From the NCBI GenBank assembly GCA_903813345.2, contig CAIIXF020000001.1:7130001-7194000 (forward strand): DNA of 64,000 bases, read 5' to 3'. Under the pieces are notes generated by a model. That model worked only from the letters and a program-made list of their open reading frames with translations. It ran no database searches and was not told the DNA's origin. The DNA is from Owenia fusiformis (taxonomy: Eukaryota). Below, piece by piece: positions 17,072-38,687 of this stretch. How positions within the stretch are numbered: position 1 is the stretch's first letter; the number at the start of each line of letters is the position of its first letter. The position numbers and the translations under genes were made by a program.

Positions 17072-20000
17072 TCAAGTTTTCTTTCTTGAGGTATTTTCCT
17101 CCACATATAACTGCATCTGCAATAAAAACAACAACAGATAAACGAACCAAAATTAAAAAGTGAAACATGTATATTCGAACACCTGGCTTATCTGAACACC
17201 TTCGTGGTCCCATTTTTTTTCCCCATTGACTCCCATGTTATTAAAAAAACTTTGAAATCTGAACACTTTACACTCATATTTGAAAAATCAACCTGCCTAA
17301 TCTGAACACTTTGCACAAAATATTACATATTTCTTAAAATTTGCTCAAATATTTTCAACTGAACATTGATAATTGTAATGATATCAAAACTTTGGAAAAA
17401 AATCAAATGGTATCATAATGGGTCTTTCTACCATGACTCACTAAACTCAATCGAATTGGTTTTTGGAATGCCATAAAGCTATGTGGTCAATAGAAATATT
17501 AATATTCATTAAGAATGCATTTATATTTCTTCAAAATCCAGAATCTTTTATGAATCATATTGTAGTCTTTTAGAAGTCAGTTCATGTACATGTAGTCATA
17601 TGCAGTATACAGTAGTCAATGAAAGAGATATCCAGAACTGCATTATTCCCACTGTCTACTTACCTTGACAACAGCATTGTCTACAGACTTCAATGGTAGC
17701 ATAGATGATTCTCCCATGTAGGTTTGCTCTCTCTCTGCTTCAACCCATGTAAATTCCTTCAACATAGCAGAAAAACATAGCCATGTGATAAAACTTATTG
17801 TTAGTACCTCAGCTAAAATACTCGATTCTGATTGGTTGATTAGCGGTCAACAATATGTACTGTTGACCGCTACTAAAAACTGTTGACCACTACTTTTGAA
17901 AAATAAGTTTCATGACATCATAATGTCTACAGAAATAATGGTAGACGGACATTTTGTAAACGTTGATGAAAGTGATATTTTGACTCTACAAGACGACAAG
18001 TATAGTAAAAATACAAATAGAAACGTAAAATTAACATTAATTTACAAATGAGTATGCATTGCTGGCATGGTTCGGAGAAAAGATTGTGAAATGAAGCCAT
18101 GCCGATTGATGATTGTTGTCTATATGTGTATTATTAGTTTCTTCGGCCAAACAAAACAATTGTAGACCTCTCCATTCGGTCAACCGTCAAAATCATATAC
18201 CTCGACTGTAAACCTTGAAACTACTGTTGACCTCGACCCTCGACCTCTGGTCTCTGTCGACAGTAGTTTCTCGGTTTACAGTCTCGGTATACAATATTGC
18301 CGGTTGACCTCTGGAGAGGTCAACAATTGTATACAGTGTGCCAAAATCTGTATATGTTTGTTATTAAAAATAATTGCCCCAGTCCTTGTTCATTCCAGGA
18401 TTATAGCCAGGAGTTTGAAATGGAAAAGGCACACTATATGATTATGAGACCACATTGACAGGAACTTTAAAAATGTAATTGTCACAGACATACATACAGC
18501 TACATTTCTTCATTTAAATGTTGTGTTTTATCTGACCATATGTGATCCATGGCATTGGTGTCGGAAGGGGGAGGGTGTTGGGGGCGACCGCCCAAAAAGT
18601 GAACACCCCCTTGGCAAATCCTGGCTACAGGCCTAGTGTATGTTTATTTCAGCATACAAGTAAGCTATTTCTGATGTATGCATAGAAATAATGCTGATAC
18701 TTACTTGAGCTAAGGTGTATGTTTATTTCAGCATACAAGTAAGCTATTTCTGATGTATGCATAGAAATAATGCTGATACTTACTTGAGCTTTAGGTGTAT
18801 GTTTATTTCAGCATACAAGTAAGCTGTTTCTGATGTATGCATAGAAATAATGCTGATACTTACTTGAGCTAAGGTGTATGTTTATTTCAGCATACAAGTA
18901 AGCTATTTCTGATGTATGCATAGAAATAATGCTGATACTTACTTGAGCTAAGGTGTATGTTTATTTCAGCATACAAGTAAGCTATTTCTGATGTATGCAT
19001 AGAAATAATGCTGATACTTACTTGAGCTTTAGGTGTATGTTTATTTCAGCATACAAGTAAGCTATTTCTGATGTATGCATAGAAATAATGCTGATACTTA
19101 CTTGAGCTAAGGTGTATGTTTATTTCAGCATACAAGTAAGCTATTTCTGATGTATGCATAGAAATAATGCTGATACTTACTTGAGCTTTAGGTGTTTGTT
19201 TCATGTCAGCATACAAGTAAGCTATTTCTGATGTATGCATAGAAATAATGCTGATACTTACTTGAGCTTTAGGTGTATGTTTATTTCAGCATACAAGTAA
19301 GCTATTTCTGATGTATGCATAGAAATAATGCTGATACTTACTTGAGCTAAGGTGTATGTTTATTTCAGCATACAAGTAAGCTATTTCTGATGTATGCATA
19401 GAAATAATGCTGATACTTACTTGAGCTTTAGGTGTTTGTTTCATGTCAGCATAAGCAATTTCTGTTGTATGAACCTGGATGCACCAACTGCATTCTTAAA
19501 ATTAAAAAATCATATCTTTTCTTAGTTCAAAAGTCACCTACAAGTTCTCAGATCTGACCTTAAATTTCAGATTTGACCTTCAAATTGTCAAAATGACTAC
19601 GAGGGCCTCCATGATATTGTTTGCAATCTTAAATTTGCATAATTGTGATAATAAAAGTTCTCTCATTTTTAACAAAGCATATTGCAACCAGAACAACGGC
19701 AACGCCAAAGCGTAGCGAATCCTATCGAACAGAAATGGCTGGCATTTTTACAAACGAATAGCAAATATCATAAAACAACACACCAGAAAGGCCACCATTT
19801 TCAAAATGGTTGCTCACTAGCCAAGTTGTCATCAGATGAAATAATATGCTTTTACGTAGCCACTCTAAAATTTTTGAAAAATCGCACACGTACTTGTAAA
19901 ATAACACACATAAAAATGGTGGTCATTTTTCAAAATGGCCAACTACTCCCCAAAGTTTTATTAGACAATGTGCCATGCTTTAAGTATTCACATATCAAAT

Positions 20001-22563
20001 TTGAACAAAATCTCTCAACTTCTTTTCGAGTTATAGTAAAATACGTTAAAATGGCGACCATTTTTCAAAATGGCCACCTTCTACCAAAAGTGTCATTAGA
20101 AATAGACAGGGTGCCATGCTTATAGTATTCACATACCAATGAACAAAATCGCTCCACTACTTTTCGAGTTATAGTAAAATATGTTAAAATGGCAGCCATG
20201 TGATAAAACTTATTGTTAGTACCTCAACTCAATTTTTCAAATTTTTTTTCAAAATTGCCGCCTTCTACCAAAAATGCCATAGGACAGTGTGCCATGCTTA
20301 TAGTATTCACATACTAAATATGAACAAAATCGCTCCACTACTTTTCGAGTTATAGTAAAATACGTTAAAATGGCGGCCATTTTTCATTTTTCTACCAAAA
20401 GTGTCTTTAGACAGTGTGCAAAGCTTATAGTATTCACATACCAAATATGAACAAAATCGCTCCACTATTTTTTGAGTTACAGCAAAAATCGTAAAATGAC
20501 GAGTAAAGGCTGCCATTTTTAAAGATGGCTGCCACGTGCTTCTTTAATATCTACATTTGTAGCATTATTAATGTCCTTTATATTCACAAATGTCCTTTAG
20601 TATTCACAAATATGAACAAAATCGCTCCACTACTTTTCGAGTTATAGCAAAATACGTTAAAATGGCGGCCATTTTTCAATTTTTTTTTCAAAATGGCCAC
20701 CTTCTACCAAAAGTGTCTTTAGACAGTGTGCAATGCTTATAATATTCACATACCAAATATGAACAAAATCGCTCCACTATTTTTTGAGTTACAGCAAAAA
20801 TCGTAAAATGACGAGTAAAGGCCACCATTTTTCAAGATGGCTGCCATGTGCTTCTTTAATATCTACATTTGTAGCATTATTAATGTCCTTTATAATTTTT
20901 TTACATTTAAAACATATTGCTATTACAGTTTTACATATTGCACCTAAATTACTGTAAAATCGGCACTAAAATGGCCGCCATTTTGAAATGAGCTGCCATT
21001 TCGAAAATCGGCTTTCGAGCAGAACTTCTACCCCCATAGGGTATATGTGTACAAAATATGAACAAAATCGGGCCAACGGTATTTGAGTTATTGCCCGGAC
21101 GGACGGACGGATGGACGGACTTACGTACGGACGGACGGACGGAGGCGTTCCCTATATCCCTCCGAACTTCGTTCGATGGGATAATAACAAAACTCATGGG
21201 CATTTTCTTGACAGATAGAATATCAAAATAATGACAAAATATTATTCAAAATGAATTAGTTTTAAACAATATTGTAACTTGTGATTTCCTTCAAGTTTTG
21301 AATCATATCTGTCATGTATAAATTGTATTCAAAATTAAAGGAATCTGTTGTTTGAACTTATCTAATTTTACAGGCCATGGGATACACAATGTTTTATAAA
21401 GCATATTATCTCTTTTGTTGAAAATTGTTTTAGATGGCCATAGGAGGCAATCATAGAAATACTTCAGCAACAATTCACTCGAACTCTTGCTTGATTGTGA
21501 TGATTATCATCTTGACTCACACTCATACTGTATAACTAAAAGGAAGTTCACCTTGTGGGTTGGTTGTAAGAATAGCATCACATATATTCAATTTGAGCAG
21601 GAAAGCCCTTAGAGCATCCTCCAAGCGCACTAGATACATGTCTTCACTGCAATGTAACCAAACAAAAGAATTCAGGTTTCATAAAATAATCACAATGTAA
21701 ATGTAGTGATATAAATTCAGCAATGAGTTTGACTAAAAGTTCTCCTAGAATAAGTGAGCTACTTAAATTCAAAAAATGATTGAAATACATGTCAATGCGA
21801 TTTAAGACATGTACCGCACATTAAGGGTTAATAGAATAAGAGTAAGAATGTACCTAAAATCACATGCTGTTGCTGAGGCAATCTCAAAGACGAATTTCTC
21901 TGTTGGTCTGCTGCTACCATCCAATATTGTCATACAGACTCGGTCAGCTGTATGCTTATCCAGCAATGGTTTCAGGCTCTGTATTGTGGCAATTATGTAT
22001 TGGTTCACATCTGGATGGGTTGACATTTGTATCGGAACATTGTATTTCTTGCGTCTTTCAAAGATACCTGCTGGGTATAGTTCTCTTGTGTAAAGAATAC
22101 TATGGAAGGCTACTTCAAGGAATTCACTTAAAATGTCAGATGTCACTGAAAGATAACAGTAAATATTGTTGCGAATAAGTTTATTTACAAAATACTTTTT
22201 AGTGATAACCTCAGAAAACTTCATATAAAACTTTTAGAAATAAATAACTGAATAATGAAGATTGATAGTGCACTGTGAATCACAATTTGCTGATGACAAA
22301 AAGAGGTGCAGTTTGACCTTAGGTTTATATTCTATTCAAATTCTATCACTGTTTTAATTGAACGATTATTGGCATAGACATAGCCTCAGAGAGCAAAAAG
22401 TGAAAAATTATTAGCAAATGCGAATGGGCGATAATGGAGAGAATTATTAGGATTTGTCTGTGGCGAATTGCAATAAATTCTTTACAAGGGACGAATATAA
22501 AATAAAAACGTTGATTTTACCTTGTGTTACATCAAGATTCGTTGAATTTCGTCCAGTATTCAT
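17072..22563 (-). CDS. MAD2L2: MAD2L2/REV7 HORMA-domain protein (DNA pol zeta / shieldin subunit), 6 coding exons, 213 aa
   Basis: Exons 22563-22521, 22145-21854, 21646-21552, 19494-19421, 17756-17664 and 17116-17072 total 642 nt, all GT/AG with consistent phases. Translation includes [72 protein letters not shown] and PLKSV..VVKMQLYVEE, matching REV7 hallmarks. Confidence 0.95.
17812..18332. mobile_element. Non-autonomous hairpin-containing interspersed element (possibly Crypton-like) in MAD2L2 intron 4
   Basis: Starts CTCGATTCTGATTGGTTGA. Internal inverted repeats GCGGTCAACA/TGTTGACCGC and a terminal long hairpin at 18160-18330. Family assignment is from recalled motif similarity only. Confidence 0.4.
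18637..19452. repeat. 79-81-bp minisatellite (~10 units) derived from the MAD2L2 exon-4 3' end and 5' splice site
   Basis: Unit on the minus strand: CATACATCAGAAATAGCTTACTTGTATGCTGAAATAAACATACACCTTAGCTCAA|GTAAGTATCAGCATTATTTCTATG. It aligns with exon 4 CATACAACAGAAATTGCTTATGCTGACATGAAACAAACACCTAAAGCTCAA|GTAAGT. Confidence 0.92.
19674..21190 (+). mobile_element. HINE/DINE-1/pearl-like (Helentron-associated) element with internal tandem repeats, in MAD2L2 intron 3
   Basis: Array of ~120-150-bp units containing AAAATGGCGGCCATTTT. (GGAC)n microsatellite at 21097-21142, then a short 3' hairpin CCCTCCGAACTTCGTTCGATGGG followed by ATAA. Confidence 0.75.
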
Positions 22564-23722
22564 GATTTTTATTGTTTTGAAAAGGACTATAATTTTTCAT
22601 TTTCTAATTAGGGATCCCGAGTGTTTTATTTTCAACAATATTGTGGAGAATCTGGTATTGCAATTCCAGTCATCCCCCTCCCACTCACTATGTATTAGGT
22701 AGAATTTTTACATTAGCTATTTGAAAGCCCATGGATTGACATACTATTTTATGACCAACTCATTTAAGCCTAAATATGAATGGAATAGTGGCAATTTCCT
22801 ACACACATGATTGGGCCTTTACTTGGGGTTTTGCCCCCCCCCCAGCTCTCGGAGGATTACTTAGTTTACTCAAAGCTATCCTGGCTATGTGCAAATATAG
22901 TAATCGGAGGAGATGTATTCAGAGGAACATATATATTGTCCTGGTACGGGATAAGGGAAGGGCAAAAGGCTTCGCAGTTAGACTCAGACTGCATAACTCA
23001 CCCATTCTCAATAAGAATGCAAAATAGGTGACCCAGGGCTCAATCTCAGCATTTACATTACCAACATCACTTTTTGTTGTATATATAAATAGTATATATG
23101 ACCCTCTACCTAGCACGTTTGTAATATATGATTTCTCAGTAACACATATTTTATTATATGTACTAGAATAGGGCTATTCATCAGTTACGTGACTGTCGCC
23201 ATATCAAAAATCAGGATTGTATGGTGCCATTAGAGAATTTTTCATGCATAACATCCCATATAAAGTGGTGTATTATACACAAGGCGATCCCAGCTTCTGG
23301 TTAAATGACAGAAACTATCATTTTGACATTTTAACCATGTTGAAACTGTTCCTTGACCAATGTCGCCAGACTTTTTTATATCAACCCCCCTGTGCTATAA
23401 ATCATATAAAAACTGGTGAAAAATTAATGTTTCATATGTGCCATATACGTATCTGGATTCCAATTTGAATACTTAATAGAAAGTCGTAAAAGTTGATATT
23501 TGAAACGTTGAGATTTTGGGGCCAGAAAATTATAATTCCCGTTTTTCATGAAGTTATAGATAAGAAAATCATTTACGTGATCATAGTTTTCACAGGCAAT
23601 AAGTGTCTGAGCAAATTAATGTTATATCACCTTATTGTATGGTAGGAGTGATCCTTGTTGATCAGTATTTTTAACTAAATTGACATTGTTTGAATATAAT
23701 ACAGCCAGCAAAAGGGTATTTC

Positions 23723-26482
23723 TGTTACGACCCTCGTGTGGTAGCGTGGTTTGGGGGTCGCAAACAGAATACAGTCTAAGAATCAATAGTTTGATTTGAT
23801 GTTTTCATTAACTTAGTTTCGGGACAAGTTCAAGTAAAAGTTGAAATGTGTATCCCTATTTATTTGAACAACATCCGTGTTCACAGTATCATAACAAAAT
23901 TGGATCAAATTGGGATAAATTTTGCGATGAAAATTTAGGGATAATTTAGGGATAAATTTAGGGATAAAAATTTAGGGATAAATTCTGGGATAAAAATAAT
24001 TGGGATGAAGTGGGACAATTTCGGGATAACAATTACGGGATAACAAAATCTGAATATAGACTAAGTAAGATTTGGCAGTTTTCAATGTAAGTTGTTTGTC
24101 TCATAAAGGCGAATGGCAACAGACTCCAGATTCTGAATGTGCCCAGTGTTCAGTTGTATCAAATAAGTATAATGTTAGGGTGTGAGTATAACCAGGTAGA
24201 AGTCTTAGCCACTGGGGGCTACAATGGACTTCAAGCTGTATATAAAGCTCACTGTTCACACTTAAAATGGGAGATTTTGTAAGAATTAACGTAGGGCTAT
24301 TTCAAATCAAGAGTCTGTCAAACTCATCAGGGGATAATATTACTTGTACACCATTTAAACAAGCAAGTAAGAAAACATTGGAAGTAAATGATGTTTGAGG
24401 TAACGACTGGGAACCAGGGTGAATGAAATTCTCACTAATATTCTCAATAAGATAAAGGTTAAATAAGAAAGTAAGATCCTGGATTGTACTTTAGCTTTGC
24501 ACTATTGCATAGTTTCTGGGAAAATATATGTATGACTTATTGTGAGTGATTGTTATTCAAAGAAGCCCTTAGCAAATATGAGCTAAGATAAAGCTTGTTG
24601 CTTGAATGTTAGTATCACTGAAGTCACCTGGAATTTAGTCAGAATCTATTTTGAATCCAGAATCTACTTTAGATAAAATGAGGGGGGATTTCTAACATAT
24701 ATATAAACAATTGAACACAAGAAGTGATATTCTGTGGATTTTTATATAATGTATAAAAACGACTCTATTTCTATGTACTAATCTACACAAACATTACACA
24801 ATTCAGTACTGCCGAGATGGTATATCAAGTAAATAATCTCTCAAACCAAACATGCATAAAACAGCACAGCTCACCCAAAAATGTAACTCAACAGTGCAAT
24901 TTTATATAATCCCTGGTGGGGTTGAAATCAGCTCTCTATACTACTCACATGAAAAGTAGAACATCATTTTGCCACTATCAGACTATGGTACAATTGGCAA
25001 GTAAACAGGAAACAGTATTTTAAAAGTATTCCAGTATCTATAATGAATTAGAATGTGGTTAACATAGAATTAGACCAGACATGGAAAACTAGAAGGGGAG
25101 GGGGTGTCTTAAGTCCGAAAATGGGCTTTGAATGACCGTGATCCTTAAAAGTACTGAACTTCAAAATGTCTGGACAGAGGCTTTAAAAGAAGCTTTAGTC
25201 TTAAAAGTGACTTCCAATGAACCTCGAAGGTACTTAATGTCAAAATATCCAAAATAGTCTTAAACTAGGCTTAAAGTCTTAAATTGAGCTTCAAATGTCC
25301 TTGACCCTTAAAAGTACTTCAATGATCAGTTGTTTGATAATGGTCCCATAAGCTCGTTATTTCACCTTTAAATTACCCAGAATTTAACATACAAATATAC
25401 AAACGAGTATTTCTAGTGTATTAATAAAATTTACCCTGTGAACAAACTAAATACAGTCCCAAACTGGATGGGGGGGGGGGAAGATGTCGTATAGAGGTGT
25501 CTATGAACCCCTGGAATTTGCAGTTGACTCTGGTTTAGAGCAAGCTACATAAGGTTCGTAAAGACAGTAACTTTCCGTACACCTTGTCAAATATTCCCAA
25601 ACGATTCCCTGTGGGGATGTTGTATAGAAGGTTCCATAAGGAACCCCGGGAACTTGCTTTCGACGCTGGTTAATAAGTTACATAGGTTCTTTAAGACAAA
25701 AACTCTGCGTGTAACTTTGCGTTAACCTTGTCAAATGTTCCTTAACAATCCCTGGGACAATTTAAACACGGGATGTTCACAAGGCAAATAAATAAAATTA
25801 AGGAAATAAATCAAGTTTACAGATACTTCTTTTCAAAGACTAAAACTCTGCAAAAATACAATTAGATCAAGTCAATTACCTTTACCAACTCGTACACCTA
25901 AGTTGGTTTATCTGCGGCAATATAAATATCCAATTTTAGTGACGATTTAATGTTTAAAATTCCACAAAATGTTTTCCATGTCTGGCCGGCTTGAATTCGA
26001 ATCATAAAAGCACAGAAAAAGACAATTCACTTAAATCGTGCTTATTTACTTAAATCAAGCTTAATAAGCCTCACTTTGGATTTTGAAAACAAACCCAGAC
26101 AACTGCCCTTTCTAAAAAGTTTGTAACATAACATTAAACATGAAACTGGGCCTAAAACCTTCATATTAAACTCATATTATGAACAAAATGTATATGTTGA
26201 CATTAATCCTGTAAATAATATTACATGAAAAACACAAGAGAAGGTTATTAACCCAAATATAAATATAGAGAAAAATGATTAAACTCTAACCATACTTTAA
26301 GAGTATAGCCAAAGTAGTAATACTGACTACCCTTTTACAGAATTTAAATTATTGTATAACTCTTTAAATATTGAGTAACTAAAAGCACAATTGATAAAGT
26401 GAAGAGCAAAAAGTTAAACAAAGTGACAATCCTTCAAGGCAATTCCATTACCATGCTCAAAGTAATCTGAAGGATCGTCACA
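23723..26482 (-). repeat. 3' LTR (2,760 bp)
   Basis: Preceded on the minus strand by the PPT. Candidate polyA signal AATAAA at 23864-23859. Confidence 0.95.
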
Positions 26483-26496
26483 CTGCTCCCCCTTTT
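26483..26496 (-). promoter_or_regulatory. Polypurine tract
   Basis: AAAAGGGGGAGCAG immediately before the 3' LTR on the minus strand. Confidence 0.88.
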
Positions 26497-28206
26497 AAAA
26501 GAGTTCGTCCTCGAACTATGAAATTATTGATAAAAGATGCAAATTATATATAAACACATTACCTAAAGTAAGCATTTCACACATCATTTACTACAACATA
26601 GTACCTAGTAAAGGAATTGATAAACATATATACACAATAAGGTTTTAATGTTTAATCAGTTTACTACTTAATAAACATAAGTCTAAATCAAATACAATGT
26701 TAGTTTACACTTTTCTCGATTTCTCAACTGAAATACATAACATAAAAAGGCTAGCATAATCTAATAAACAATCACATTTAATTACAAAAAATGTCTCTAG
26801 CAGCATTAGTGTCTTCCTTCTTTCTCTTGTAGGTCATGGTTCTTGTCAAGGGTTGAAGTAATATCCATACTGTCTGCATTAAGTTTATCAAACGTTCTTA
26901 CCATCACATTAATTGATGATACAGTCATTGTCACTGGTTCCCCACTATAATAAGGGAATATGTTAAGTATTTGGCATGGTCTCCAGTACAATATAAAATT
27001 GAGATTGTCAGCCATTCTTCGTGTCCTTCCTCAAAATGCAGAGTCATCACAAAGCTGCAGAATTAATTCTCATAAGTATAGAGTACATGTCTCTGTTTAT
27101 AAGCTTTAATTCTCAATGTCAATATTAAGAGTGGCTCCCAATATCGTCGCTTCATTGGGTACACCAAATAAGTCACTTTAATCGAACAGCAATCATGATA
27201 GTGTTCATTAAGATTACTTTTATATAGCATAGTGTACAATGTTCATTAGGTTGAAGGTCATCACATGGTTCATGCTGGGCTGAAATAAAACTGTTAGTCC
27301 TGGAAATAAGATTAGTTATTCACATAGTACAATAATAAATTTTGAATATCACACATGTGATATGAATTGGCCGAAATAAAGGGTTTTCAAATGAGATTGA
27401 ATCAATCAAACGTATGATCAAGATATATCCTTTCACAATCAGCTTCGGATTGGTAGCATTCAGATAACATCTCATAACATTTGTACTGGGAATGATTCAA
27501 ATTCAGTCACCAAGTCATTTTTGGTACAAAGGCAGTTAGGGAGGTGAGGTAGGATTCAAACTTGATGGGAACATCCATTGCTTTGGATGGGATCACAAGC
27601 TGGTACAGTTGCTTGAAAGTGGAACTGGGGGTATGAGGGGAACCTACAGTCAGTAGTAGGGAAACACTTCGATGAAGCAAATGGACAGAGCTCTTGTCCA
27701 TCGGGCACTCACCCCCAGAGGGTCACAAGTTGATCCACCTCATTTAAACAGAAGCAGGGACAAAACTATAATATTTCAATGTCATTTGGATTCCAATAGA
27801 CTTGTTTCCCAAAGCGTAAACAGGCTTCATGGCCGTAAACATTGGTTGATCAGGCCAATGTTCACAATGAACCCCATTGCTTGAGTAAAGTAGGTCACTG
27901 GTAATCCAGAACATATTGACAATCAAATAATGCTCTGCTGTGGTCATGTCATCACTACCACTGAGCATTGTAGTTTAAGCTTATCAGGAATCAAAGCTTC
28001 AACAGCTCAGGACATCTGGTAGACATAAGATGAGAAACATCAGGAATGGGACAGGAAAACTTCAGTAAAGAAAAATAAAATTCGTTTTTTTCTTACATTC
28101 ACATCAAACACATATCGTTTCACCAGCCACTCTTTGGAAGGATATGATGTACCTGTGGTGGCTTGGACTTACTATACAGATACATTCATGCAAGTTAGCT
28201 TAAAAG

Positions 28207-31200
28207 CTAACTTAGCCTTCCCTTAAGGGAGGGGCATGCATTTACACAGTGAGTGTCCTGGGCACAATAGAAGCATACTGTAGCTCCAGGAACTTTGGAG
28301 TTTGGATGTCTTTTGGTACAATCAAATACTGAATGACTTCCAGAGTCACATATTTTACAGTATTTTCTTTTCAGTTTGGAATCAGGTTTCTCCTTTGTTA
28401 TAGTTTGAGTCAGATTTCGTGCTAAAGCCTCTATCTTTTGCTCAACTATTTCCATCACATCATTCTCAGAAAGAGATAATGAGGTAGATGAGTTAACCTG
28501 AACAGGAGTTGGAGTAGCACATACACCAGGGTCTTGGAAACGTTCAAGTCTTTTCTTTCTTCCCTTGAAGAAAGCTTCATATTGTAAAGCCATGGTAAGA
28601 GCTTCATTGAGGGTTTTAGGGTTAGAAAAAGAAAGCTTGGATTCCAGTTCTTCATTATTCAAAGCATCAATGAAGGCCTGTGTAGCTAGGTCATCAATTG
28701 TCTTCTTTGACATGCTTGACTTCCCAAAAGCTTGTCTTGACAATTTTCTTATATCATGGGCTAACTTTTCAAGAGGCTCATTATTGCCCCTTAACTTATG
28801 TTTAAGCTCGGCACGGGCATGGTTACTTTGTTCGGGTGGTTCATAGTTAATTTTCAGGACATTTATGATACTAGCTAAGGTTGGCAGGTCTTCATCATCC
28901 AAATCATCTAAAACATTGACAGCCTCTCCTTCAAGACTCCTCACCATAAAGATGGCAGATTCTTCATCTGTCCAACCATTTATGTTAGAGACAAGTCTAA
29001 ATTGGACAAGAAAAGCTGAGAGACTGCACTTTCCATTGAAAAGTGGTGCTTTCATTTCCTTTCTAGAAAACGAAGTACCTCTTCTTTGCTTTTCAAGTCC
29101 AGTACAGGATTCCTGATCAGATGTATTAGGACTGGATATAAACAGATCATTGGGTTTTTCGATCCGTCTGTAGAGACCAGGGGAACTTGGATTCACTTTT
29201 GATCTACTCATAACTGTAGATCTAAGGGGAGGTAAACTATTTTCCATAGCAGATTCATACTCATCAGAATTATTCATGTAGTAAAATGGCCTTTGTCTAG
29301 TTTTTGTATGGTAAGATGGGCATTTCATACTATATTCTACATAATCTCGGTCAGAAAATTCAACAGCGGTTTCAAATTCTGGAGAGGGGAATAGTGATTC
29401 AGCTCGGGAGGATCTAGCATAATCCTCGTTTACCCCCTGTTTGAAGGGGAATTTTTGACAAGGTGTGCACACACTACAAGCATCCTGGGCTGACATCTCA
29501 TGGGAGGGCAAGGCACTTCTGTTATAGCCAGGTATTTGAGCATCAAGCCATGAATGTGTCTCCAAATCTGAATCATAGGTCTGATCCACACTTTTGGGTA
29601 GACAATATGGCTGTCTGCGATTGGCAGAAAACTTAGTGCTTTGAGATGATTTGTCTGATAAACTGAACATATCAGATCTATCAACAACTTGGATTTTGCA
29701 AGGAGGGGATTTACTAGATTCACATAAAACTCTATCATTAGGCCTCTTTAAATCTTGTCTACAAAGGGTACTTTCGGGTTGATGCATACATTCATAACGT
29801 TTGGACTTAATATCCGAGTATGGGACAGTCTGCTCAGTTAAAAATTCAGCATGTTTCAACTTGTTAGGTTCACTTAATTGAGTAATCTCTTTTGTTACTT
29901 TAGGGACATTTGGAAGCTGGAAATCCCTGTTGAGATCACATGACTCATCAGCTGATAGTGCCTCTTTAGGCAAACCTCTTGTGTATTTAAGGTCATTACA
30001 CATTGAGAGTGGTATTCTATCAGATGGGATCAGTAAAGAGCTTTGCAAAGTCTGTTTTAACAGTTCACCCCCATATGCTTCCTGGAGCATGTCACTCTCA
30101 TGAGGTACTGGTAGCACCGGAGGAAGGGATGGAACCTGGTAGTTGACTTGCACATCCTTTACTACTCCCATTTTGCTAGAATGACCTAACAAATCATAGT
30201 TTGGCTTTGTATAGTCGTCTTTTCTCTCTTGTTTGACATAAATTTGGGACTTCAGTGTCAAATTACGGGAATGAGAGAAATCTGGGGTCTTTGGTCTAAA
30301 TCTGGGAATGTCAGTTATCTTTATTGGGGGAAGTAATGGTCTAAATGGAGAGGACTGAAATTTGTTTGGCCAGCTCTGTGGCTCATTTTTCTGATTCGCA
30401 CTTGGTAATAGAGGAGAAGTATGCATTGAATGTTTGCTTGGGTTTAAATCAGAAAAACTGCCATGACTTGCAGATCTTCCATGAGAAGAAACCTTTGTGG
30501 ATGTCATTAAACCCTGTCCAGACTTTCTACCAGCTGTATGAGTAGATGCACTGGATGGCTTACCAGGGTAAGCACGAGGGAGTGTTTGGACATCTAAGGG
30601 TTTTCTAGATTGGAATGTTCCCATTGTTGACAGTTTATCCAATGGTTTTTGCAATTCAGAGGACTTAGCAATTTGAGAATCACTTGTCCTTTCATACTTA
30701 GGGTGTAAAACTCTTTGATCATTAGGCCCTAAATCCGTTTTTAAATAGGGGGCTAAACTGAGGGGTGAAAAAGCTTGTTTAGTAGTAGCTCTTGTTCCAT
30801 TGGCTGGAAGAGGCTTTAAAGGAGGTGTTTTAGATGGCATTCCCCCATAAGCACCCATCAGGGTTTCCCTTTCAAGGGACCCAGGTGCACCAGCTATGGG
30901 GGGTTCATATGCCCCACCTCTACTACTCACACTTTTTTCACCATTTTTTGAAGATACCAAATTCATGTCATTTTTGGGGTCTTTAGTCTCCTGCTTAACC
31001 CTTTTAAGCAGGGAATTAAACAACCTACCCTTGGGAAGTGGTCTAGGCCTATCTAACAGTAATTTAGGAATGCGCGTCAATTTGACAGGTGGAGAAACCT
31101 TAAAAGATGGTCTCTTTATTGGGGGTGGTGTAGTTACTGATGATTCAAGTGGAAGTGTATCGTCTTGAGCCAATTTCAACTCTTGTTCATTAAGGTGTTG

Positions 31201-31359
31201 ATGGCCCAATACAACTTCAGAATCATCAAACCACCCGGGGATAATAGTGTCAAAAGTTTCCGCCTGCGATTTCTGGCTAGACAAGGGTCTTTCAGTGGAT
31301 TCGGACATGTGTAATGGGGTGCGCTTAGCGAGATTAAAAATGTCCAACTTTTCCGACAT
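28207..31359 (-). CDS. gag: Gag-like protein (~1,050 aa): long S/P-rich N-terminal region, Ty3/gypsy capsid domain, two CCHC zinc knuckles
   Basis: Uninterrupted ORF with the first ATG ~105 nt after the PBS. Capsid-like segment PLFNGK..FLVQF..VSNINGW..SLEGEA..ARAELKHKLRGNNEPLEKLAHDIRKL..AFIDAL..PKTLNEAL. Knuckles CKICDSGSHSVFDC and CFYCAQDTHCVNAC fit CX2CX4HX4C. Confidence 0.92.
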   Translation of the reverse strand: MSEKLDIFNLAKRTPLHMSESTERPLSSQKSQAETFDTIIPGWFDDSEVVLGHQHLNEQELKLAQDDTLPLESSVTTPPPIKRPSFKVSPPVKLTRIPKLLLDRPRPLPKGRLFNSLLKRVKQETKDPKNDMNLVSSKNGEKSVSSRGGAYEPPIAGAPGSLERETLMGAYGGMPSKTPPLKPLPANGTRATTKQAFSPLSLAPYLKTDLGPNDQRVLHPKYERTSDSQIAKSSELQKPLDKLSTMGTFQSRKPLDVQTLPRAYPGKPSSASTHTAGRKSGQGLMTSTKVSSHGRSASHGSFSDLNPSKHSMHTSPLLPSANQKNEPQSWPNKFQSSPFRPLLPPIKITDIPRFRPKTPDFSHSRNLTLKSQIYVKQERKDDYTKPNYDLLGHSSKMGVVKDVQVNYQVPSLPPVLPVPHESDMLQEAYGGELLKQTLQSSLLIPSDRIPLSMCNDLKYTRGLPKEALSADESCDLNRDFQLPNVPKVTKEITQLSEPNKLKHAEFLTEQTVPYSDIKSKRYECMHQPESTLCRQDLKRPNDRVLCESSKSPPCKIQVVDRSDMFSLSDKSSQSTKFSANRRQPYCLPKSVDQTYDSDLETHSWLDAQIPGYNRSALPSHEMSAQDACSVCTPCQKFPFKQGVNEDYARSSRAESLFPSPEFETAVEFSDRDYVEYSMKCPSYHTKTRQRPFYYMNNSDEYESAMENSLPPLRSTVMSRSKVNPSSPGLYRRIEKPNDLFISSPNTSDQESCTGLEKQRRGTSFSRKEMKAPLFNGKCSLSAFLVQFRLVSNINGWTDEESAIFMVRSLEGEAVNVLDDLDDEDLPTLASIINVLKINYEPPEQSNHARAELKHKLRGNNEPLEKLAHDIRKLSRQAFGKSSMSKKTIDDLATQAFIDALNNEELESKLSFSNPKTLNEALTMALQYEAFFKGRKKRLERFQDPGVCATPTPVQVNSSTSLSLSENDVMEIVEQKIEALARNLTQTITKEKPDSKLKRKYCKICDSGSHSVFDCTKRHPNSKVPGATVCFYCAQDTHCVNACPSLKGRLS

Positions 31360-31465
31360 TGTCAATTACAGTTAATGATCCCGCTTTGAATATTAATGAG
31401 TGCAAATTAGCATAAACGTAAGTAATGGCGTAAAAATGGGCTTGGGTCAATACTTCAAGTATTGC

Positions 31466-31483
31466 ATCCCACCGCTGCCACCA
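31466..31483 (-). promoter_or_regulatory. Primer-binding site complementary to the tRNA-Leu (AAG/TAG type) 3' end
   Basis: Minus strand TGGTGGCAGCGGTGGGAT, 4 nt after the 5' LTR. The plus strand ATCCCACCGCTGCCACCA equals the 3' 18 nt (with CCA) of the conserved animal tRNA-Leu(AAG/TAG), from recalled sequence. Confidence 0.85.
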
Positions 31484-31487
31484 TTTC

Positions 31488-34247
31488 TGTTACGACCCTC
31501 GTGTGGTAGCGTGGTTTGGGGGTCGCAAACAGAATACAGTCTAAGAATCAATAGTTTGATTTGATGTTTTCATTAACTTAGTTTCGGGACAAGTTCAAGT
31601 AAAAGTTGAAATGTGTATCCCTATTTATTTGAACAACATCCGTGTTCACAGTATCATAACAAAATTGGATCAAATTGGGATAAATTTTGCGATGAAAATT
31701 TAGGGATAATTTAGGGATAAATTTAGGGATAAAAATTTAGGGATAAATTCTGGGATAAAAATAATTGGGATGAAGTGGGACAATTTCGGGATAACAATTA
31801 CGGGATAACAAAATCTGAATATAGACTAAGTAAGATTTGGCAGTTTTCAATGTAAGTTGTTTGTCTCATAAAGGCGAATGGCAACAGACTCCAGATTCTG
31901 AATGTGCCCAGTGTTCAGTTGTATCAAATAAGTATAATGTTAGGGTGTGAGTATAACCAGGTAGAAGTCTTAGCCACTGGGGGCTACAATGGACTTCAAG
32001 CTGTATATAAAGCTCACTGTTCACACTTAAAATGGGAGATTTTGTAAGAATTAACGTAGGGCTATTTCAAATCAAGAGTCTGTCAAACTCATCAGGGGAT
32101 AATATTACTTGTACACCATTTAAACAAGCAAGTAAGAAAACATTGGAAGTAAATGATGTTTGAGGTAACGACTGGGAACCAGGGTGAATGAAATTCTCAC
32201 TAATATTCTCAATAAGATAAAGGTTAAATAAGAAAGTAAGATCCTGGATTGTACTTTAGCTTTGCACTATTGCATAGTTTCTGGGAAAATATATGTATGA
32301 CTTATTGTGAGTGATTGTTATTCAAAGAAGCCCTTAGCAAATATGAGCTAAGATAAAGCTTGTTGCTTGAATGTTAGTATCACTGAAGTCACCTGGAATT
32401 TAGTCAGAATCTATTTTGAATCCAGAATCTACTTTAGATAAAATGAGGGGGGATTTCTAACATATATATAAACAATTGAACACAAGAAGTGATATTCTGT
32501 GGATTTTTATATAATGTATAAAAACGACTCTATTTCTATGTACTAATCTACACAAACATTACACAATTCAGTACTGCCGAGATGGTATATCAAGTAAATA
32601 ATCTCTCAAACCAAACATGCATAAAACAGCACAGCTCACCCAAAAATGTAACTCAACAGTGCAATTTTATATAATCCCTGGTGGGGTTGAAATCAGCTCT
32701 CTATACTACTCACATGAAAAGTAGAACATCATTTTGCCACTATCAGACTATGGTACAATTGGCAAGTAAACAGGAAACAGTATTTTAAAAGTATTCCAGT
32801 ATCTATAATGAATTAGAATGTGGTTAACATAGAATTAGACCAGACATGGAAAACTAGAAGGGGAGGGGGTGTCTTAAGTCCGAAAATGGGCTTTGAATGA
32901 CCGTGATCCTTAAAAGTACTGAACTTCAAAATGTCTGGACAGAGGCTTTAAAAGAAGCTTTAGTCTTAAAAGTGACTTCCAATGAACCTCGAAGGTACTT
33001 AATGTCAAAATATCCAAAATAGTCTTAAACTAGGCTTAAAGTCTTAAATTGAGCTTCAAATGTCCTTGACCCTTAAAAGTACTTCAATGATCAGTTGTTT
33101 GATAATGGTCCCATAAGCTCGTTATTTCACCTTTAAATTACCCAGAATTTAACATACAAATATACAAACGAGTATTTCTAGTGTATTAATAAAATTTACC
33201 CTGTGAACAAACTAAATACAGTCCCAAACTGGATGGGGGGGGGGGAAGATGTCGTATAGAGGTGTCTATGAACCCCTGGAATTTGCAGTTGACTCTGGTT
33301 TAGAGCAAGCTACATAAGGTTCGTAAAGACAGTAACTTTCCGTACACCTTGTCAAATATTCCCAAACGATTCCCTGTGGGGATGTTGTATAGAAGGTTCC
33401 ATAAGGAACCCCGGGAACTTGCTTTCGACGCTGGTTAATAAGTTACATAGGTTCTTTAAGACAAAAACTCTGCGTGTAACTTTGCGTTAACCTTGTCAAA
33501 TGTTCCTTAACAATCCCTGGGACAATTTAAACACGGGATGTTCACAAGGCAAATAAATAAAATTAAGGAAATAAATCAAGTTTACAGATACTTCTTTTCA
33601 AAGACTAAAACTCTGCAAAAATACAATTAGATCAAGTCAATTACCTTTACCAACTCGTACACCTAAGTTGGTTTATCTGCGGCAATATAAATATCCAATT
33701 TTAGTGACGATTTAATGTTTAAAATTCCACAAAATGTTTTCCATGTCTGGCCGGCTTGAATTCGAATCATAAAAGCACAGAAAAAGACAATTCACTTAAA
33801 TCGTGCTTATTTACTTAAATCAAGCTTAATAAGCCTCACTTTGGATTTTGAAAACAAACCCAGACAACTGCCCTTTCTAAAAAGTTTGTAACATAACATT
33901 AAACATGAAACTGGGCCTAAAACCTTCATATTAAACTCATATTATGAACAAAATGTATATGTTGACATTAATCCTGTAAATAATATTACATGAAAAACAC
34001 AAGAGAAGGTTATTAACCCAAATATAAATATAGAGAAAAATGATTAAACTCTAACCATACTTTAAGAGTATAGCCAAAGTAGTAATACTGACTACCCTTT
34101 TACAGAATTTAAATTATTGTATAACTCTTTAAATATTGAGTAACTAAAAGCACAATTGATAAAGTGAAGAGCAAAAAGTTAAACAAAGTGACAATCCTTC
34201 AAGGCAATTCCATTACCATGCTCAAAGTAATCTGAAGGATCGTCACA
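31488..34247 (-). repeat. 5' LTR (2,760 bp)
   Basis: Same length as 23723-26482, with no differences seen on inspection (including an 11-G run). Followed on the minus strand by GAAA and the PBS. Confidence 0.95.
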
Positions 34248-34659
34248 CTTGCATCATTTACGACACCATCATTTACGATACCTAGTAGTACGAAAATAAC
34301 GGTTACCATACTCCTAGCTCTGAATAAAGTTTATAAAGCGGGAAATTTGAGAATTCATATTCATTTGAATCTGAATAAAGAAACACTACCACCTTTGTAG
34401 AGTAAATCCACACAATTTAAGGTATATATCACACCTAATATAGTATCGCTCTTGTAAAACGAAGATGTAGTGTTAATTTGATGTTATCTATGGCATAAAG
34501 ACAGTCAGTATAAATGTGAAGATGAATATAAAAACACTTTTCTATCATTCAATTTGAATTGAAGCTATAGTCTTGCGTTTTCTATGTCATAAATTACGTT
34601 ACCATAGGTAACGTAATTGATAAATTCTATTGCACACATTTTCTGTCGTCAAATCTTTA

Positions 34660-35900: not shown

Positions 35901-36115
35901 GATTAAGTAACGTTTTCAGGAGTTCATATGTACCTATGATATTAGAGGAGACACTGAATGTTGTTACTTTTTGACGATAATCACAAATTATATAGTATAG
36001 TTTTGATCTTGCGATTGTAAGTTTTGTAATCACTTACGTTACAAAGGATTTAGCATTACAAATGTGTGAAGAAAGACTAAGTCCCTTTAATCCTGTATAT
36101 ATTCATTCCAACATA

Positions 36116-36912
36116 CAGGGTGTCCCAAAAAAAAGGAAACCAGCAATAGATTGCTTATTTCTCAAATATGAATAATGATAGGAAAATTTCACAGCTATCC
36201 TCTGATAGATTATGATGTCCTCTTTCTTATGATACCAAAGTTGTCTATTTTCCTTCACGGATGACTGAGTAATAAGGGATTTAAGTGACCATGTCAGAAA
36301 TGAGTTTGTACCACTTTCAGCCAAGTCAATTTCACCATCATAACAAAGTGATAAGTAACAACAAACATCAGGATATCACTCTTATACTCATTTATTCCAA
36401 TTAAAATTACACATATCATATTTAACACCCCTTTTAAATCCCAATGTCCAATCAGAGTTGTTTTAACCCCAGTGTCATCATCAGGGATGCAGTACGTGCG
36501 ATGAGATCAAGGGCAGACATTTGCATTGAAAGGAATGGGGGTCATGTTGAAGGATTCTGGGGTTAAAACAACTTTGAATGGACATTGGGATTTAAAAGGG
36601 GTGTTAAATATGATATGTGTAATTTTAATTGGAATAAATGAGTAAAAGAGTGATATCCTGATGTTTGTTGTTATTTATCACTTTGTTATGATGGTGAAAT
36701 TGACTTAGCTGAAAGTGGTACAAACTCATTTCTGACATGGTCACTTAAATCCCTTATAACTCAGTCATCCGTGAAGGAAAATAGACAACTTTGGTATCAT
36801 AAGAAAGAGGACATCATAACCTACCAGATGGTAGCTGTGAAATTTTCCTATTATTATTCATATTTGAGAAATAAGCAATCTATTGCTGGTTTCCTTTTTT
36901 TGGGACACACTG
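36116..36912. mobile_element. Tc1/mariner-type fold-back MITE, near-perfect ~360-bp arms, TA TSD
   Basis: TA-CAGGGTGTCCCAAAAAAAAGGAAACCAGCAATAG ... CTATTGCTGGTTTCCTTTTTTGGGACACACTG-TA. Confidence 0.92.
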
Positions 36913-38687
36913 TATAGCGTATGTGACAATATATTGATTCATTACGTGTTTTGTGCATAAATAATGGTTGTGTTAGCTTTAATGTTTCTATTGCAAAAGT
37001 TAGTTAATTTCTCCATCATTTACGTTACTTGATGGTCCACTGAACTATGTTTGTTTTAAATGTTACTATTGGTTAAAATGCAGTGTAAACATGATAAAAG
37101 AAGCACCAGTTGATGGTTTAACCACGATCACATATGATATGACTCATTCTACGATGTTACTATTTTTGGATCATATACGTTACCAAGGGTGTAATGATAT
37201 ACAAATTTCAAATAGATTTTGTATGGCATATCAAACACCAAGATATGGCTATCAATTGATTCTGAACACTATTTCTAATCAGAAAAGAAAGATAAATTTA
37301 ATGTTAACAGACTGATTTTCTATAAAATTGGAATGACATGTAGCACTTAGGTTTTGTTTCTGAAAAGGAATAATAAGTCACATGTAATTGTTGACTTCAA
37401 TGTGAATTCTTTCCACTTATGTCTCTTCAAAATGCCTGATGTATGATTTAGTATTAAGACAAAATATATCCTTATTGTTAGGAACAAAAACAGACATGAG
37501 AATAATATGTTGAATGAAAATATAGGTCTCTTGCTACGACAACCCTCTATAACGTAAATGACAGAGACTTACTTTTTTAAATAAACACTAGATAAGCTTC
37601 AACATGTGACTTTTCCATGAAGGGGTATGAGATTGATGAAGATATTTTGACTTTAGATACTTAACATATATTCAAATAAAAATACATCAACTTTAAACCA
37701 TTCAAAGCTACTTTAATTTTCGTCAGATTCATACCTGGAATTTGCATTCTTATTGAGAATGGATGAACTGGGCAACCAAAGCCCCACATAAAAACAAATA
37801 ATAATCATTGCTAATAAGCCAAAGAATGGGTATCGACAAGGCGAACTTTTTGAACACACGTTTCTCTTAAACCAGTCATCAAAAATTTCTGAAAATCTTA
37901 CAAATTGTCAATTTCAATCCTTTGAATGGTAACAATATAATTTGAAATAGATGGCATACTTTCATCTATATTGTTTTAAAAAACACATCAAACACTTGCA
38001 ATTGTTTTGTTCTTGGTATCATGTTTCCAGAGTGAAATGAAACATCTTTCCGAACCTCATTGGAACAAAACGACATAAACACAACATGTTTAGGTCTCTC
38101 AATATTGTAATTGTACAAAGGAAATTTTGGTTGATTTTAAAAAAGTATCTTGTTAATGAAATAAAAGGGTTTTCTTGATTTTTATCTATTTTTGGGGGGG
38201 GGATTTTGTTTTAATTTTTTGAATACTTTTTTAAAATCAACCAAAAATTCCTTTGTATAACTTTAATATTGAGAGGTCTAAAAACATGTTGTATATGCTA
38301 TTTTGTTCCAACAAGGTTCGGTAAGACATTTTATTTTCATTCTCAAGAATTGGTAGAAAGGAGCAAAAACAAAAAATGTTAACAAAAACAGGTTATATAA
38401 AATATTTCTAAATAATTTTCGCATTAAATTGTTGTCAATCAGTCAACATTACATAAAATACCATGTTTTTTACAGAATGTTTTCAATGATTGGTTTAAGA
38501 GAAAAACATTGTTGAATTCAGTTCTCCATATAGATACCTATCCTTTGCTCATGAACGCCAATTTAAAGGCAAGGTATAGTAGAGTGATGTTATGGGATGA
38601 AAAATATTTGTTTACATAGGAATTAGGAAGTGCCATTCAAAATATTTGGGCAAAATGAAGACTTTATTTCATAGTATTGTAAAGAAT

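What the first reader, a model, noticed from the sequence alone, without database searches (positions are those of the whole stretch)
23718..34249. No TSD and flanks that match unprocessed cDNA ends: integrase-independent insertion?
Seen: identity between the two LTR regions runs beyond TG...CA at both ends. On the minus strand the 3' LTR is followed by GAAAT (23722-23718), the same as the LTR-PBS spacer plus the first PBS base (31487-31483). The 5' LTR is preceded by AG (34249-34248), the same as the last two PPT bases (26484-26483). The flanks (..AAGGGT / TGCATC..) share no duplication. Established: linear retroelement cDNA carries extra terminal bases, sometimes including the tRNA's terminal A, that integrase trims before making a 4-6-bp TSD. 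Inference: untrimmed cDNA was captured at a DNA break by end joining, which fits an element lacking integrase.
Basis: partly seen in the sequence, partly recalled or inferred. Interest (0 to 1): 0.8.

Follow-up and report, generated by a model that had tools for sequence, protein, structure and literature searches.

The report
Young retrotransposon with odd insertion junctions
A very recently inserted, gag-only LTR retrotransposon kept one extra base of its DNA copy at each end instead of the clean ends and perfect target duplication that integrase normally leaves, which marks a rare non-standard insertion but does not prove that integrase was bypassed.

Summary
The sequence facts are right. 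Two 2760-bp LTRs (TG..CA) are 100% identical, and identity runs on for AG (34249-34248) and GAAAT (23722-23718) and stops exactly there. The element has a 1052-codon gag-like ORF and no pol.

The new evidence is an uninterrupted copy of the target, seen in contigs of three public runs. In element sense it reads GATG-CAAA-TACCC. The filled site reads GATG-CAAG-[TG..CA]-GAAA-TACCC. So AAAT of GAAAT and the A of AG were already in the target. Only one G on each side is foreign, and each G is the base next to the LTR inside the element.

The junctions also read as a 4-bp duplication (CAAA) with its LTR-proximal base replaced on both sides. Recombination between two copies is excluded.

Two mechanisms remain:
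- Integrase-independent joining guided by microhomology, as shown for Tf1 and HIV-1 (PMC11042837), about 0.42.
- Integrase-made 4-bp staggered integration that kept bases from the cDNA 5' flaps, with a one-sided precedent in XMRV (PMC2857682), about 0.35.

This is a new member of a known kind, of moderate interest.

The parts
31488..34247 (-). 5' LTR, 2760 bp, TG..CA
   Evidence: 100% identical to the 3' LTR. X16 reads of other copies break off at the equivalent first LTR base (26482, 49 reads).
23723..26482 (-). 3' LTR, 2760 bp, TG..CA
   Evidence: X16 reads of other copies break off at 23723 (39 reads, flank agreement 0.40).
34248..34249 (-). AG in front of the 5' LTR. G (34248) is absent from the uninterrupted target and equals the last base before the 3' LTR. 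A (34249) could come from the target or from the cDNA.
23718..23722 (-). GAAAT behind the 3' LTR. G (23722) is absent from the uninterrupted target. AAAT (23721-23718) is present in the target and also equals the spacer plus the first PBS base (microhomology).
31466..31483 (-). Putative primer binding site TGGTGGCAGCGGTGGGAT, 4 nt (GAAA, 31487-31484) downstream of the 5' LTR
   Evidence: sequence. Starts with TGG as expected for pairing with a tRNA's CCA end. The tRNA identity (Leu-like) is recalled only; the window holds no tRNA gene.
26483..26496 (-). Polypurine tract region AAAAGGGGGAG-C-AG directly upstream of the 3' LTR
   Evidence: sequence
28207..31365 (-). Single long ORF (1052 codons stop to stop, first ATG at 31359). 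The C-terminal third is a retrotransposon gag (capsid plus two Cys/His knuckles); the N-terminal 699 residues match no family.
   Evidence: Ty3_capsid E 7e-4, below the curated cut-off; 4280 relatives at E<=1e-3, best 34% identity; of 9 relatives scanned, 7 have zf-CCHC and 5 have Retrotrans_gag. N-terminal part has 0 families.
26497..28206 (-). 1.7 kb non-coding internal region; no protease, RT, RNase H or integrase
   Evidence: no ORF >=80 aa here; 25 ORFs >=35 aa, 11 of them on the minus strand; 10 of those 11 scanned, 0 meaningful Pfam matches (two at E about 0.1 to unrelated families).
23555..23717 (.). Flank on the element's 3' side; part of a multi-copy host repeat into which the element inserted
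   Evidence: X3 contig of 198 nt, depth 1965, matches 23555-23721 with 0 differences and runs on into 34251..
34250..34282 (.). Flank on the element's 5' side; continuation of the same host repeat, containing a 15-bp unit x2.1 (34252-34282)

Best explanation
A very young, non-autonomous (gag-only) Ty3/gypsy-like LTR retrotransposon entered a copy of another repeat as a full-length linear cDNA whose ends had not been trimmed to TG..CA by integrase.

The cDNA ends are inferred to read ..(C)AG-TG at the PPT side and CA-GAAA(T) at the tRNA-primer side. Host repair is inferred to have joined them to a chromosomal break. The right end would have paired through the 3-4 nt microhomology AA(A)T shared by the spacer/first PBS base and the target. 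The left end would have been joined with 0-1 nt of homology.

This leaves one unambiguous cDNA-derived G on each side, no target loss, and no true target-site duplication.

Shown: the junction sequences, the uninterrupted target, and the lack of pol. Inferred: the structure of the cDNA ends, the break, and the absence of integrase catalysis.
For: (1) The LTRs show 0 differences in 2767 positions, and identity stops exactly at AG and GAAAT. The chance of a 5+2 match is about 1.1e-4.
(2) The uninterrupted target seen in 4 contigs of 3 runs lacks the two G's. Both G's equal the base that flanks the LTR inside the element; the chance of that is about 0.03 by composition.
(3) There is no perfect TSD of any length from 2 to 8 nt at the LTR borders. 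The longest shared word near the ends is AAAT, offset by 8 nt.
(4) The target carries AAAT exactly where the cDNA end reads GAAAT. The background frequency of AAAT is 0.012-0.015. A homology-guided join expects this.
(5) The same signature is shown experimentally (PMC11042837; abstract and sections 8, 11, 12, 13 read). Integrase-null Tf1 inserts where the downstream flank matches the first 5 nt of the PBS and the upstream flank matches the last 3 nt of the PPT. For integrase-dead HIV-1, 1 of 11 and 4 of 58 insertions lay at PBS homology, with 1-4 virus-derived PBS nucleotides absent from the host reference.
(6) In yeast, 40 of 56 Ty1 3'-LTR captures at breaks carried extra nucleotides found only in cDNA (PMC11372161, passages).
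(7) A double-stranded cDNA end carries the extra base on both strands, so both G's are inherited without further assumptions.
Against: (1) Both LTR ends are intact to the base and no target base is lost. Reported integrase-independent events mostly show LTR truncations, target changes or tandem formation (PMC11042837 sections 12-13).
(2) The junctions fit a 4-bp stagger (CAAA), which is within the 4-6 bp range of integrases. Under end joining this is a coincidence.
(3) Only 1 base per side is unambiguously from the cDNA.
(4) Other copies of the family end cleanly at TG/CA, so the family is normally integrated by a helper's integrase.
(5) There is no extended homology between the cDNA ends and the flanks. 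The best match, an exact 7-mer, was reached by 44 of 500 shuffles.
(6) The uninterrupted site comes from a roughly 25-copy repeat, so the exact pre-insertion sequence of this copy is not known.
(7) The filled junctions were not independently confirmed by reads in the output I could see (one search lists only part of its records).
Confidence: 0.42

Rival explanations
1. Integrase did the strand transfer, with a normal 4-bp stagger into CAAA. The unpaired 5' flaps of the cDNA happened to be complementary to the single-stranded gaps: minus strand 5'-TTTC (complement of the GAAA spacer) and plus strand 5'-AG. They annealed and were ligated instead of being cut off. This left a G.T mismatch on the left and a C.C mismatch on the right, next to the LTRs, and both were fixed in favour of the flap base.
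For: - The filled site GATG-CAAG-[E]-GAAA-TACCC differs from a perfect CAAA duplication only at the two LTR-adjacent positions.
- The 4-nt spacer flap fits a 4-nt gap exactly, leaving a ligatable nick (inference).
- The LTR ends are intact and no target base is lost, as in concerted integration.
- Other copies have clean TG/CA ends, so a working helper integrase exists.
- Precedent: 1 of 13 XMRV proviruses with a 4-bp TSD had the LTR-adjacent TSD base changed to the base of the unpaired viral 5' dinucleotide. The authors speculate on misincorporation or aberrant flap processing followed by mismatch repair (PMC2857682; section 5 and passages).
Against: - The flap-derived base lies on the top strand at the left junction and on the bottom strand at the right junction. 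Plain replication gives CAAG..CAAA or CAAA..GAAA, never the observed CAAG..GAAA. Mismatch repair towards the flap strand is needed at one junction at least.
- The target's AAA is then a coincidence (0.035-0.045).
- The two-sided form has no precedent that I found.
- The family's TSD length is unknown.
- The precedent is a single clone with a speculative explanation.
Confidence: 0.35
2. The insertion was canonical with a perfect TSD (for example CAAA or GCAAA). It was later blurred by two point changes, or by two assembly or polishing errors, at the junctions.
For: Only two changes are needed to restore a 4-bp (two substitutions) or 5-bp (one substitution plus one 1-nt deletion) TSD (and the reading).
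Against: - The two LTRs have 0 differences in 2767 positions. Two changes within about 10 bp, both directly abutting the LTRs and both producing the element's own neighbouring base (chance about 0.03), are very unlikely.
- Neither change is a homopolymer-type error.
Confidence: 0.05
3. DNA-level copying rather than retrotransposition. A break in the host repeat was repaired by template switching or synthesis from a tandem (LTR-internal-LTR-internal-LTR) donor or an extrachromosomal multimer. The copied tract happened to start 1-2 nt before one LTR and end 1-5 nt after the next but one.
For: Tandem LTR elements exist in many taxa, bivalves included (PMC11042837 discussion). The retained bases are the ones that flank LTRs inside such a donor.
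Against: Both breakpoints would have to fall within a few nt of LTR borders in a 7765-bp unit, which is the natural end of a linear cDNA but arbitrary for copying. No tandem or second copy is in the window.
Confidence: 0.05
4. The TSD was lost by recombination between two copies inserted at different places. The AG/GAAAT matches are chance.
For: This is the usual explanation for young TSD-less elements. In sugar beet, 229 of 1,581 full-length non-autonomous elements lack TSDs, and 11 families with >=95% LTR identity lack them, which the authors attribute to rearrangement (PMC13570524, passage).
Against: The two flanks are directly contiguous in uninterrupted copies of the host repeat in three runs, so both belong to one site. 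The chance of the 5+2 match is about 1e-4.
Confidence: 0.02
5. A broken chromosome end (+ strand ..GGGTATTT-3') paired with AAAU at the spacer/PBS border of the element's RNA. It primed minus-strand synthesis in place of the tRNA, a target-primed start for an LTR element.
For: The right junction lies exactly where tRNA-primed synthesis starts, and the target end is complementary to AAAT.
Against: Without a copied tRNA the plus-strand strong-stop DNA would lack the PBS needed for the second strand transfer, yet a complete 5' LTR was made. The model does not explain the G at the left junction. I know of no precedent.
Confidence: 0.02

Closest known systems
Integrase-independent insertion of Tf1 and of integrase-dead HIV-1 (Li et al. 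2022, Sci Adv, PMC11042837; abstract and sections 8, 11, 12, 13 read)
   Same: The flank downstream of the 3' LTR matches the sequence that follows the 5' LTR (PBS side). The flank upstream matches the end of the PPT. A few element-derived nucleotides are absent from the target. There is no canonical TSD.
   Different: - Here the homology is only 3-4 nt and lies mostly in a 4-nt spacer, with just the first PBS base.
- Both LTRs are intact and nothing is lost from the target.
- No tandem was formed with a resident element.
- The case is a natural insertion in an animal genome, and integrase status and Rad52 dependence cannot be tested.
XMRV provirus clone C-8: 4-bp TSD with its LTR-adjacent base changed to the base of the viral 5' overhang (Kim et al. 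2010, PLoS One, PMC2857682; section 5 and passages read)
   Same: An otherwise correct 4-bp duplication whose LTR-proximal base equals the unpaired terminal base of the cDNA. LTR ends are intact.
   Different: In XMRV the change is one-sided; here it is on both sides, on opposite strands. The cause in XMRV was only speculated (misincorporation or flap processing).
Capture of Ty1 cDNA at chromosomal double-strand breaks by end joining in yeast (PMC11372161, passages read; the older work of Moore & Haber and Teng et al. 1996 is recalled, not read)
   Same: The junctions carry nucleotides that exist only in the cDNA, not in genomic copies.
   Different: The yeast events are mostly short fragments, with a hotspot at the 3' LTR. 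Here a complete 10.5-kb two-LTR element was inserted.
Non-autonomous LTR retrotransposons lacking TSDs despite near-identical LTRs (sugar beet survey, PMC13570524; one passage read)
   Same: A young non-autonomous element without a recognisable TSD.
   Different: Those cases were attributed to rearrangement or recombination without empty sites. Here the contiguous uninterrupted target excludes that and shows base-level junction anatomy. The supplements of that paper, which I could not see, may hold junction data.

Membership tests
LTR retrotransposon (Ty3/gypsy-like), non-autonomous | Two direct LTRs ending TG..CA with short terminal inverted repeats | tested here: met
   2760-bp LTRs, 100% identical, TGTGACGA..TCGTAACA
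LTR retrotransposon (Ty3/gypsy-like), non-autonomous | PBS next to the 5' LTR and polypurine tract next to the 3' LTR | tested here: met
   TGG-starting 18-mer 4 nt after the LTR, and AAAAGGGGGAG-CAG before the 3' LTR. Which tRNA it matches was not tested (recalled as Leu-like).
LTR retrotransposon (Ty3/gypsy-like), non-autonomous | gag with capsid domain and zinc knuckle(s) | tested here: met
   4280 relatives; relatives carry Retrotrans_gag (5 of 9) and zf-CCHC (7 of 9). The protein's own Pfam hit, Ty3_capsid, is only sub-threshold.
LTR retrotransposon (Ty3/gypsy-like), non-autonomous | pol (protease, RT, RNase H, integrase) present | tested here: not met
   no ORF >=80 aa and no Pfam match in the 1.7 kb after gag. 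The element is therefore non-autonomous.
Canonical integrase-mediated insertion | Perfect 4-6 bp target-site duplication directly abutting TG and CA | tested here: not met
   CAAG..GAAA against target CAAA. One foreign G lies between each LTR end and the target bases.
Canonical integrase-mediated insertion | Duplication length equal to the family's fixed stagger | not testable with these tools
   No other copy with both flanks was available: none in the window, no genome held, and only chance hits in metagenome and viral scans.
Integrase-independent, homology-guided insertion (Tf1/HIV-1 type) | Target homologous to the PBS-side and PPT-side termini of the cDNA at the junctions | tested here: met
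   the target has AAAT (of GAAAT) and A (of AG) at the junctions. The homology is short.
Integrase-independent, homology-guided insertion (Tf1/HIV-1 type) | Element-derived terminal nucleotides that are absent from the empty site | tested here: met
   one G on each side
Integrase-independent, homology-guided insertion (Tf1/HIV-1 type) | Occurs without integrase catalysis; depends on host annealing or end-joining factors | not testable with these tools
   Needs genetics. Sequence alone does not separate it from flap retention after integrase strand transfer.
cDNA fragment capture at a double-strand break (Ty1 type) | Usually partial cDNA fragments, with junctions inside the element | tested here: not met
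   the element is complete with both LTRs intact

The most novel reading that the evidence does not exclude
This would be a natural germline example, in a marine invertebrate, of integrase-independent retrotransposition that delivered a complete two-LTR element. Untrimmed cDNA ends of a gag-only parasite element would have been joined to the chromosome through 3-4 nt of homology at the spacer/PBS border. It would imply that the pathway defined in fission yeast and in integrase-dead HIV-1 operates in animals. It would also imply that some young 'TSD-less' LTR elements are primary products of that pathway rather than recombinants.
Probability: 0.4. Interest if true: 0.6.

Novelty: new member of a known kind. 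Interest (0 to 1): 0.45.

Why it matters
Young LTR elements without target-site duplications are usually written off as recombinants or annotation errors. Here the uninterrupted target is available. It shows at single-base resolution that bases from the cDNA termini were built into the chromosome.

If integrase was bypassed, this is field evidence that the Tf1/HIV-type alternative pathway works in an animal germline and can deliver intact elements. If integrase was used, it is a two-sided case of flap-derived 'TSD mutation'. That would warn against reading imperfect TSDs as a sign of age or recombination.

Either way the locus defines a simple signature: the LTR-adjacent flank bases equal the PPT-end and spacer/PBS-start bases. 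This signature can be searched genome-wide.

Tried and rejected
- No whole genome is held for the window, so other copies and their TSDs could not be collected.
- The window holds no second copy of the element or of its flanks, and no other LTR pair.
- Earlier-findings look-ups by place, by sequence and twice by words gave nothing relevant.
- An 18-nt LTR-end pattern found 4 metagenome contigs and 0 viral contigs. BLAST showed only a 20-nt chance match in 1 of the 4.
- A word-indexed protein search with gag residues 700-1052 found nothing. The exhaustive search did find relatives.
- I looked for extended homology between the cDNA ends and the flanks, as single-strand annealing over longer tracts would need. 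None exceeded chance: 44, 410, 152 and 349 of 500 shuffles reached the observed scores.
- The window has no tRNA gene against which to test the PBS.
- I laid reads on 21500-31482 only (one LTR), because the tool turns away stretches with a long repeat. The 5'-side junction (34247-34250) and a direct 'joint' across the element were therefore not examined.
- Two papers on aberrant RSV integration, cited in PMC2857682, are not held. I saw only their titles.
- One literature query failed on syntax and was not repeated.
Full report
**Observation.**
On the minus strand the window carries a 10,525-bp LTR element.
- The 5' LTR is 34247..31488 and the 3' LTR is 26482..23723. Each is 2760 bp, TG..CA, with termini TGTGACGA / TCGTAACA.
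- I compared the two LTR regions base by base at offset 7765 over 23650-26559. There were 104 mismatches, none of them inside 23718..26484 (2767 positions). The first mismatches on either side are at 23717 and 26485.
- From the window's composition (A=T=0.328, G=C=0.172), a 5+2 match has a chance of about 1.1e-4.

**What the element is.**
- The 5005-bp interior has one long ORF, 31365..28207, 1052 codons.
- The C-terminal third of this ORF is a retrotransposon gag:
  - A sub-threshold Ty3_capsid match (E 7e-4, 19.4 bits against a cut-off of 29.1).
  - 4280 relatives at E<=1e-3 in an exhaustive search, the best at 34% identity.
  - Of 9 relatives scanned, 7 carry zf-CCHC and 5 carry Retrotrans_gag.
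  - One relative, at 33% identity, is an unnamed protein of the mussel Mytilus coruscus. This is only a weak hint that the host is a bivalve.
- The N-terminal 699 residues match no family.
- The 1.7 kb between gag and the polypurine tract has no ORF of 80 aa or more. Of its 11 minus-strand ORFs of 35 aa or more, I scanned 10, and none gave a meaningful match.
- The element is thus gag-only and non-autonomous. It has a TGG-starting 18-nt PBS 4 nt (GAAA) after the 5' LTR, and a tract AAAAGGGGGAG-C-AG before the 3' LTR.
- That the PBS resembles the 3' end of a leucine tRNA is my recollection, not a test. The window has no tRNA gene.

**Other copies.**
The window has no second copy and no genome is held. 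I therefore laid one raw-read run (X16) and the contigs of three runs (X1, X3, X4) on 21500-31482. That stretch holds the 3' flank, one LTR and the interior. The tool turns away long repeats, so I did not send both LTRs.
- In X16, 39 reads break off exactly at 23723 and 49 reads exactly at 26482. The continuations are heterogeneous (agreement 0.40 and 0.42). Other copies of the family therefore end at CA and start at TG, in many different flanks.
- LTR and interior are both multi-copy in X16: 2-38 reads deep per strand, against about 0.3-2 in the single-copy bins.

**The uninterrupted target.**
- Two contigs of X1, one of X3 and one of X4 follow the left flank through 23721. They then continue with GCATCATTTACG... 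That string occurs once in the window, at 34251.
- The two flanks are therefore contiguous where the element is absent.
- On the + strand the empty site reads ..AAAGGGTATTT|GCATC... The filled site reads ..GGGTATTT-C-[element]-C-TT-GCATC...
- In element sense the empty site is GATG-CAAA-TACCC and the filled site is GATG-CAAG-[TG..CA]-GAAA-TACCC.

Three things follow.
1. Loss of a TSD by recombination between two copies is excluded.
2. AAAT of GAAAT and the A of AG already belong to the target. Only one G on each side is foreign. Each G equals the base that adjoins the LTR inside the element (the last PPT-side base and the first spacer base). The chance of that is about 0.03.
3. The site is not free of duplication. 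It can be read as a 2-bp duplication (AA) around G-[element]-G. It can be read as a blunt insertion of AG-[element]-GA with no target change. Or it can be read as a 4-bp duplication of CAAA whose LTR-proximal base is replaced on both sides.

Caveats on the uninterrupted target:
- The X3 contig (198 nt, 0 differences over 167 nt) has depth 1965, against about 70-97 for neighbouring single-copy contigs. The host sequence is therefore a repeat of roughly 25 copies, and the empty site may be paralogous.
- X1 shows a variant of the right-hand continuation.
- The output I could see does not show records across the filled junctions.

**Mechanism: the two main readings.**
A canonical integrase product would have TG and CA abutting a perfect 4-6 bp duplication. 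That is not what is here. Two changes could restore one, but with 0 differences in 2767 LTR positions that is very unlikely. Two mechanisms explain the data about equally well.

(a) Integrase-independent joining of a double-stranded cDNA with untrimmed ends.
- A blunt break between the first two A's, a direct join on the left (AG) and a join through AAT/AAAT on the right reproduce the site without loss or gain.
- This signature is established experimentally. Integrase-null Tf1 inserts where the downstream flank matches the first five PBS bases and the upstream flank matches the last three PPT bases. Integrase-dead HIV-1 shows PBS homology in 1 of 11 and 4 of 58 insertions, with 1-4 virus-derived bases absent from the host (PMC11042837, sections 8, 12, 13).
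- In yeast, 40 of 56 captured Ty1 3'-LTR fragments carried cDNA-only bases (PMC11372161).

(b) Integrase-made 4-bp staggered strand transfer into CAAA.
- The 5' flaps (minus strand TTTC, plus strand AG) anneal in the gaps and are ligated. The resulting G.T and C.C mismatches are fixed towards the flap base.
- A one-sided case exists: 1 of 13 XMRV proviruses with a 4-bp TSD had its LTR-adjacent base changed to the base of the viral 5' overhang (PMC2857682, section 5).

**Weighing the two.**
- For (a): the extra base sits on both strands of a duplex end, so both G's are inherited without extra steps. The target homology is part of the mechanism rather than a coincidence (AAAT 0.012-0.015).
- For (b): LTR ends are intact, no target base is lost, the stagger is in the integrase range, and the family clearly has access to a working integrase.
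- Against (b): the flap bases lie on opposite strands. Replication alone gives CAAG..CAAA or CAAA..GAAA, and mismatch repair towards the flap is needed at least once.
- Against (a): published integrase-independent events are mostly truncated, tandem or accompanied by target changes. I also found no longer homology between the cDNA ends and the flanks. The best exact 7-mer was reached by 44 of 500 shuffles.
- I put (a) at about 0.42 and (b) at about 0.35. The rest is spread over later mutation or assembly error, DNA-level copying from a tandem donor, recombination, and a chromosome-primed start of reverse transcription.

The point that the event 'fits an element lacking integrase' does not carry weight. 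The element lacks RT as well and must be copied inside a helper's particle, which normally contains integrase.

**Comparison with what is known, and novelty.**
- The locus works like the Tf1/HIV-type integrase-independent insertions, or like the XMRV flap case. It cannot be assigned to either on sequence alone.
- Searches for natural two-sided cases or for animal germline examples returned the experimental papers above.
- They also returned a sugar beet survey in which 229 of 1,581 non-autonomous elements lack TSDs, attributed to rearrangement (PMC13570524, passage).
- I therefore rate this as a new member of a known kind, of moderate interest. It has a clear genome-wide test (see next steps).

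Noticed in passing
window 5654-9567 (minus strand): Four ORFs of a host gene with leucine-rich repeats (8536-9567), a ZU5 domain (6890-8011) and a death domain (5654-6409). This is a PIDD/ankyrin-like immune or apoptosis architecture.
   Followed up: partly
window 22733-22767: A 35-bp segment in the left flank is hugely over-represented in X16 reads (358 and 281 loose-ended reads on its two sides; depth about 25-29 per strand against under 1 beside it). It is probably the core of a very high-copy short repeat.
   Followed up: no
window 24172-24967 (inside the LTR): Runs X1, X3 and X4 each hold one contig, at single-copy-like depth (42-45), in which 794 bp of the LTR are replaced by the same 12 letters, with a second replacement at 24991-25072. 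This is a deletion-derivative LTR copy shared by the three samples (tables 5 and 5c).
   Followed up: no
window 36113-36915, 2929-3615, 3-599, 9568-10113: Stretches of several hundred bp that are their own reverse complement (68-91% identity): foldback or MITE-like palindromes. The first lies 1.9 kb from the element.
   Followed up: no
window 18636-19471 and 55292-56186: Two tandem arrays with periods of about 79-80 bp (93-98% between units) and about 96 bp (82-87%). They are satellite-like repeats.
   Followed up: no
window 23912-23997 / 31677-31762 and 25483-25754 / 33248-33519: The LTR itself contains a 12-bp unit array (GGGATAAATTTA x6.7) near its 3' end and a 130-bp internal duplication at 70% identity.
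   Followed up: no
window 29269-31365 (minus strand): The gag ORF has a 699-residue N-terminal extension rich in S/P/K with no Pfam family. Several distant relatives also carry long N-terminal parts before the capsid domain; for example, hits align from residue 459 of 762 or 517 of 828.
   Followed up: partly
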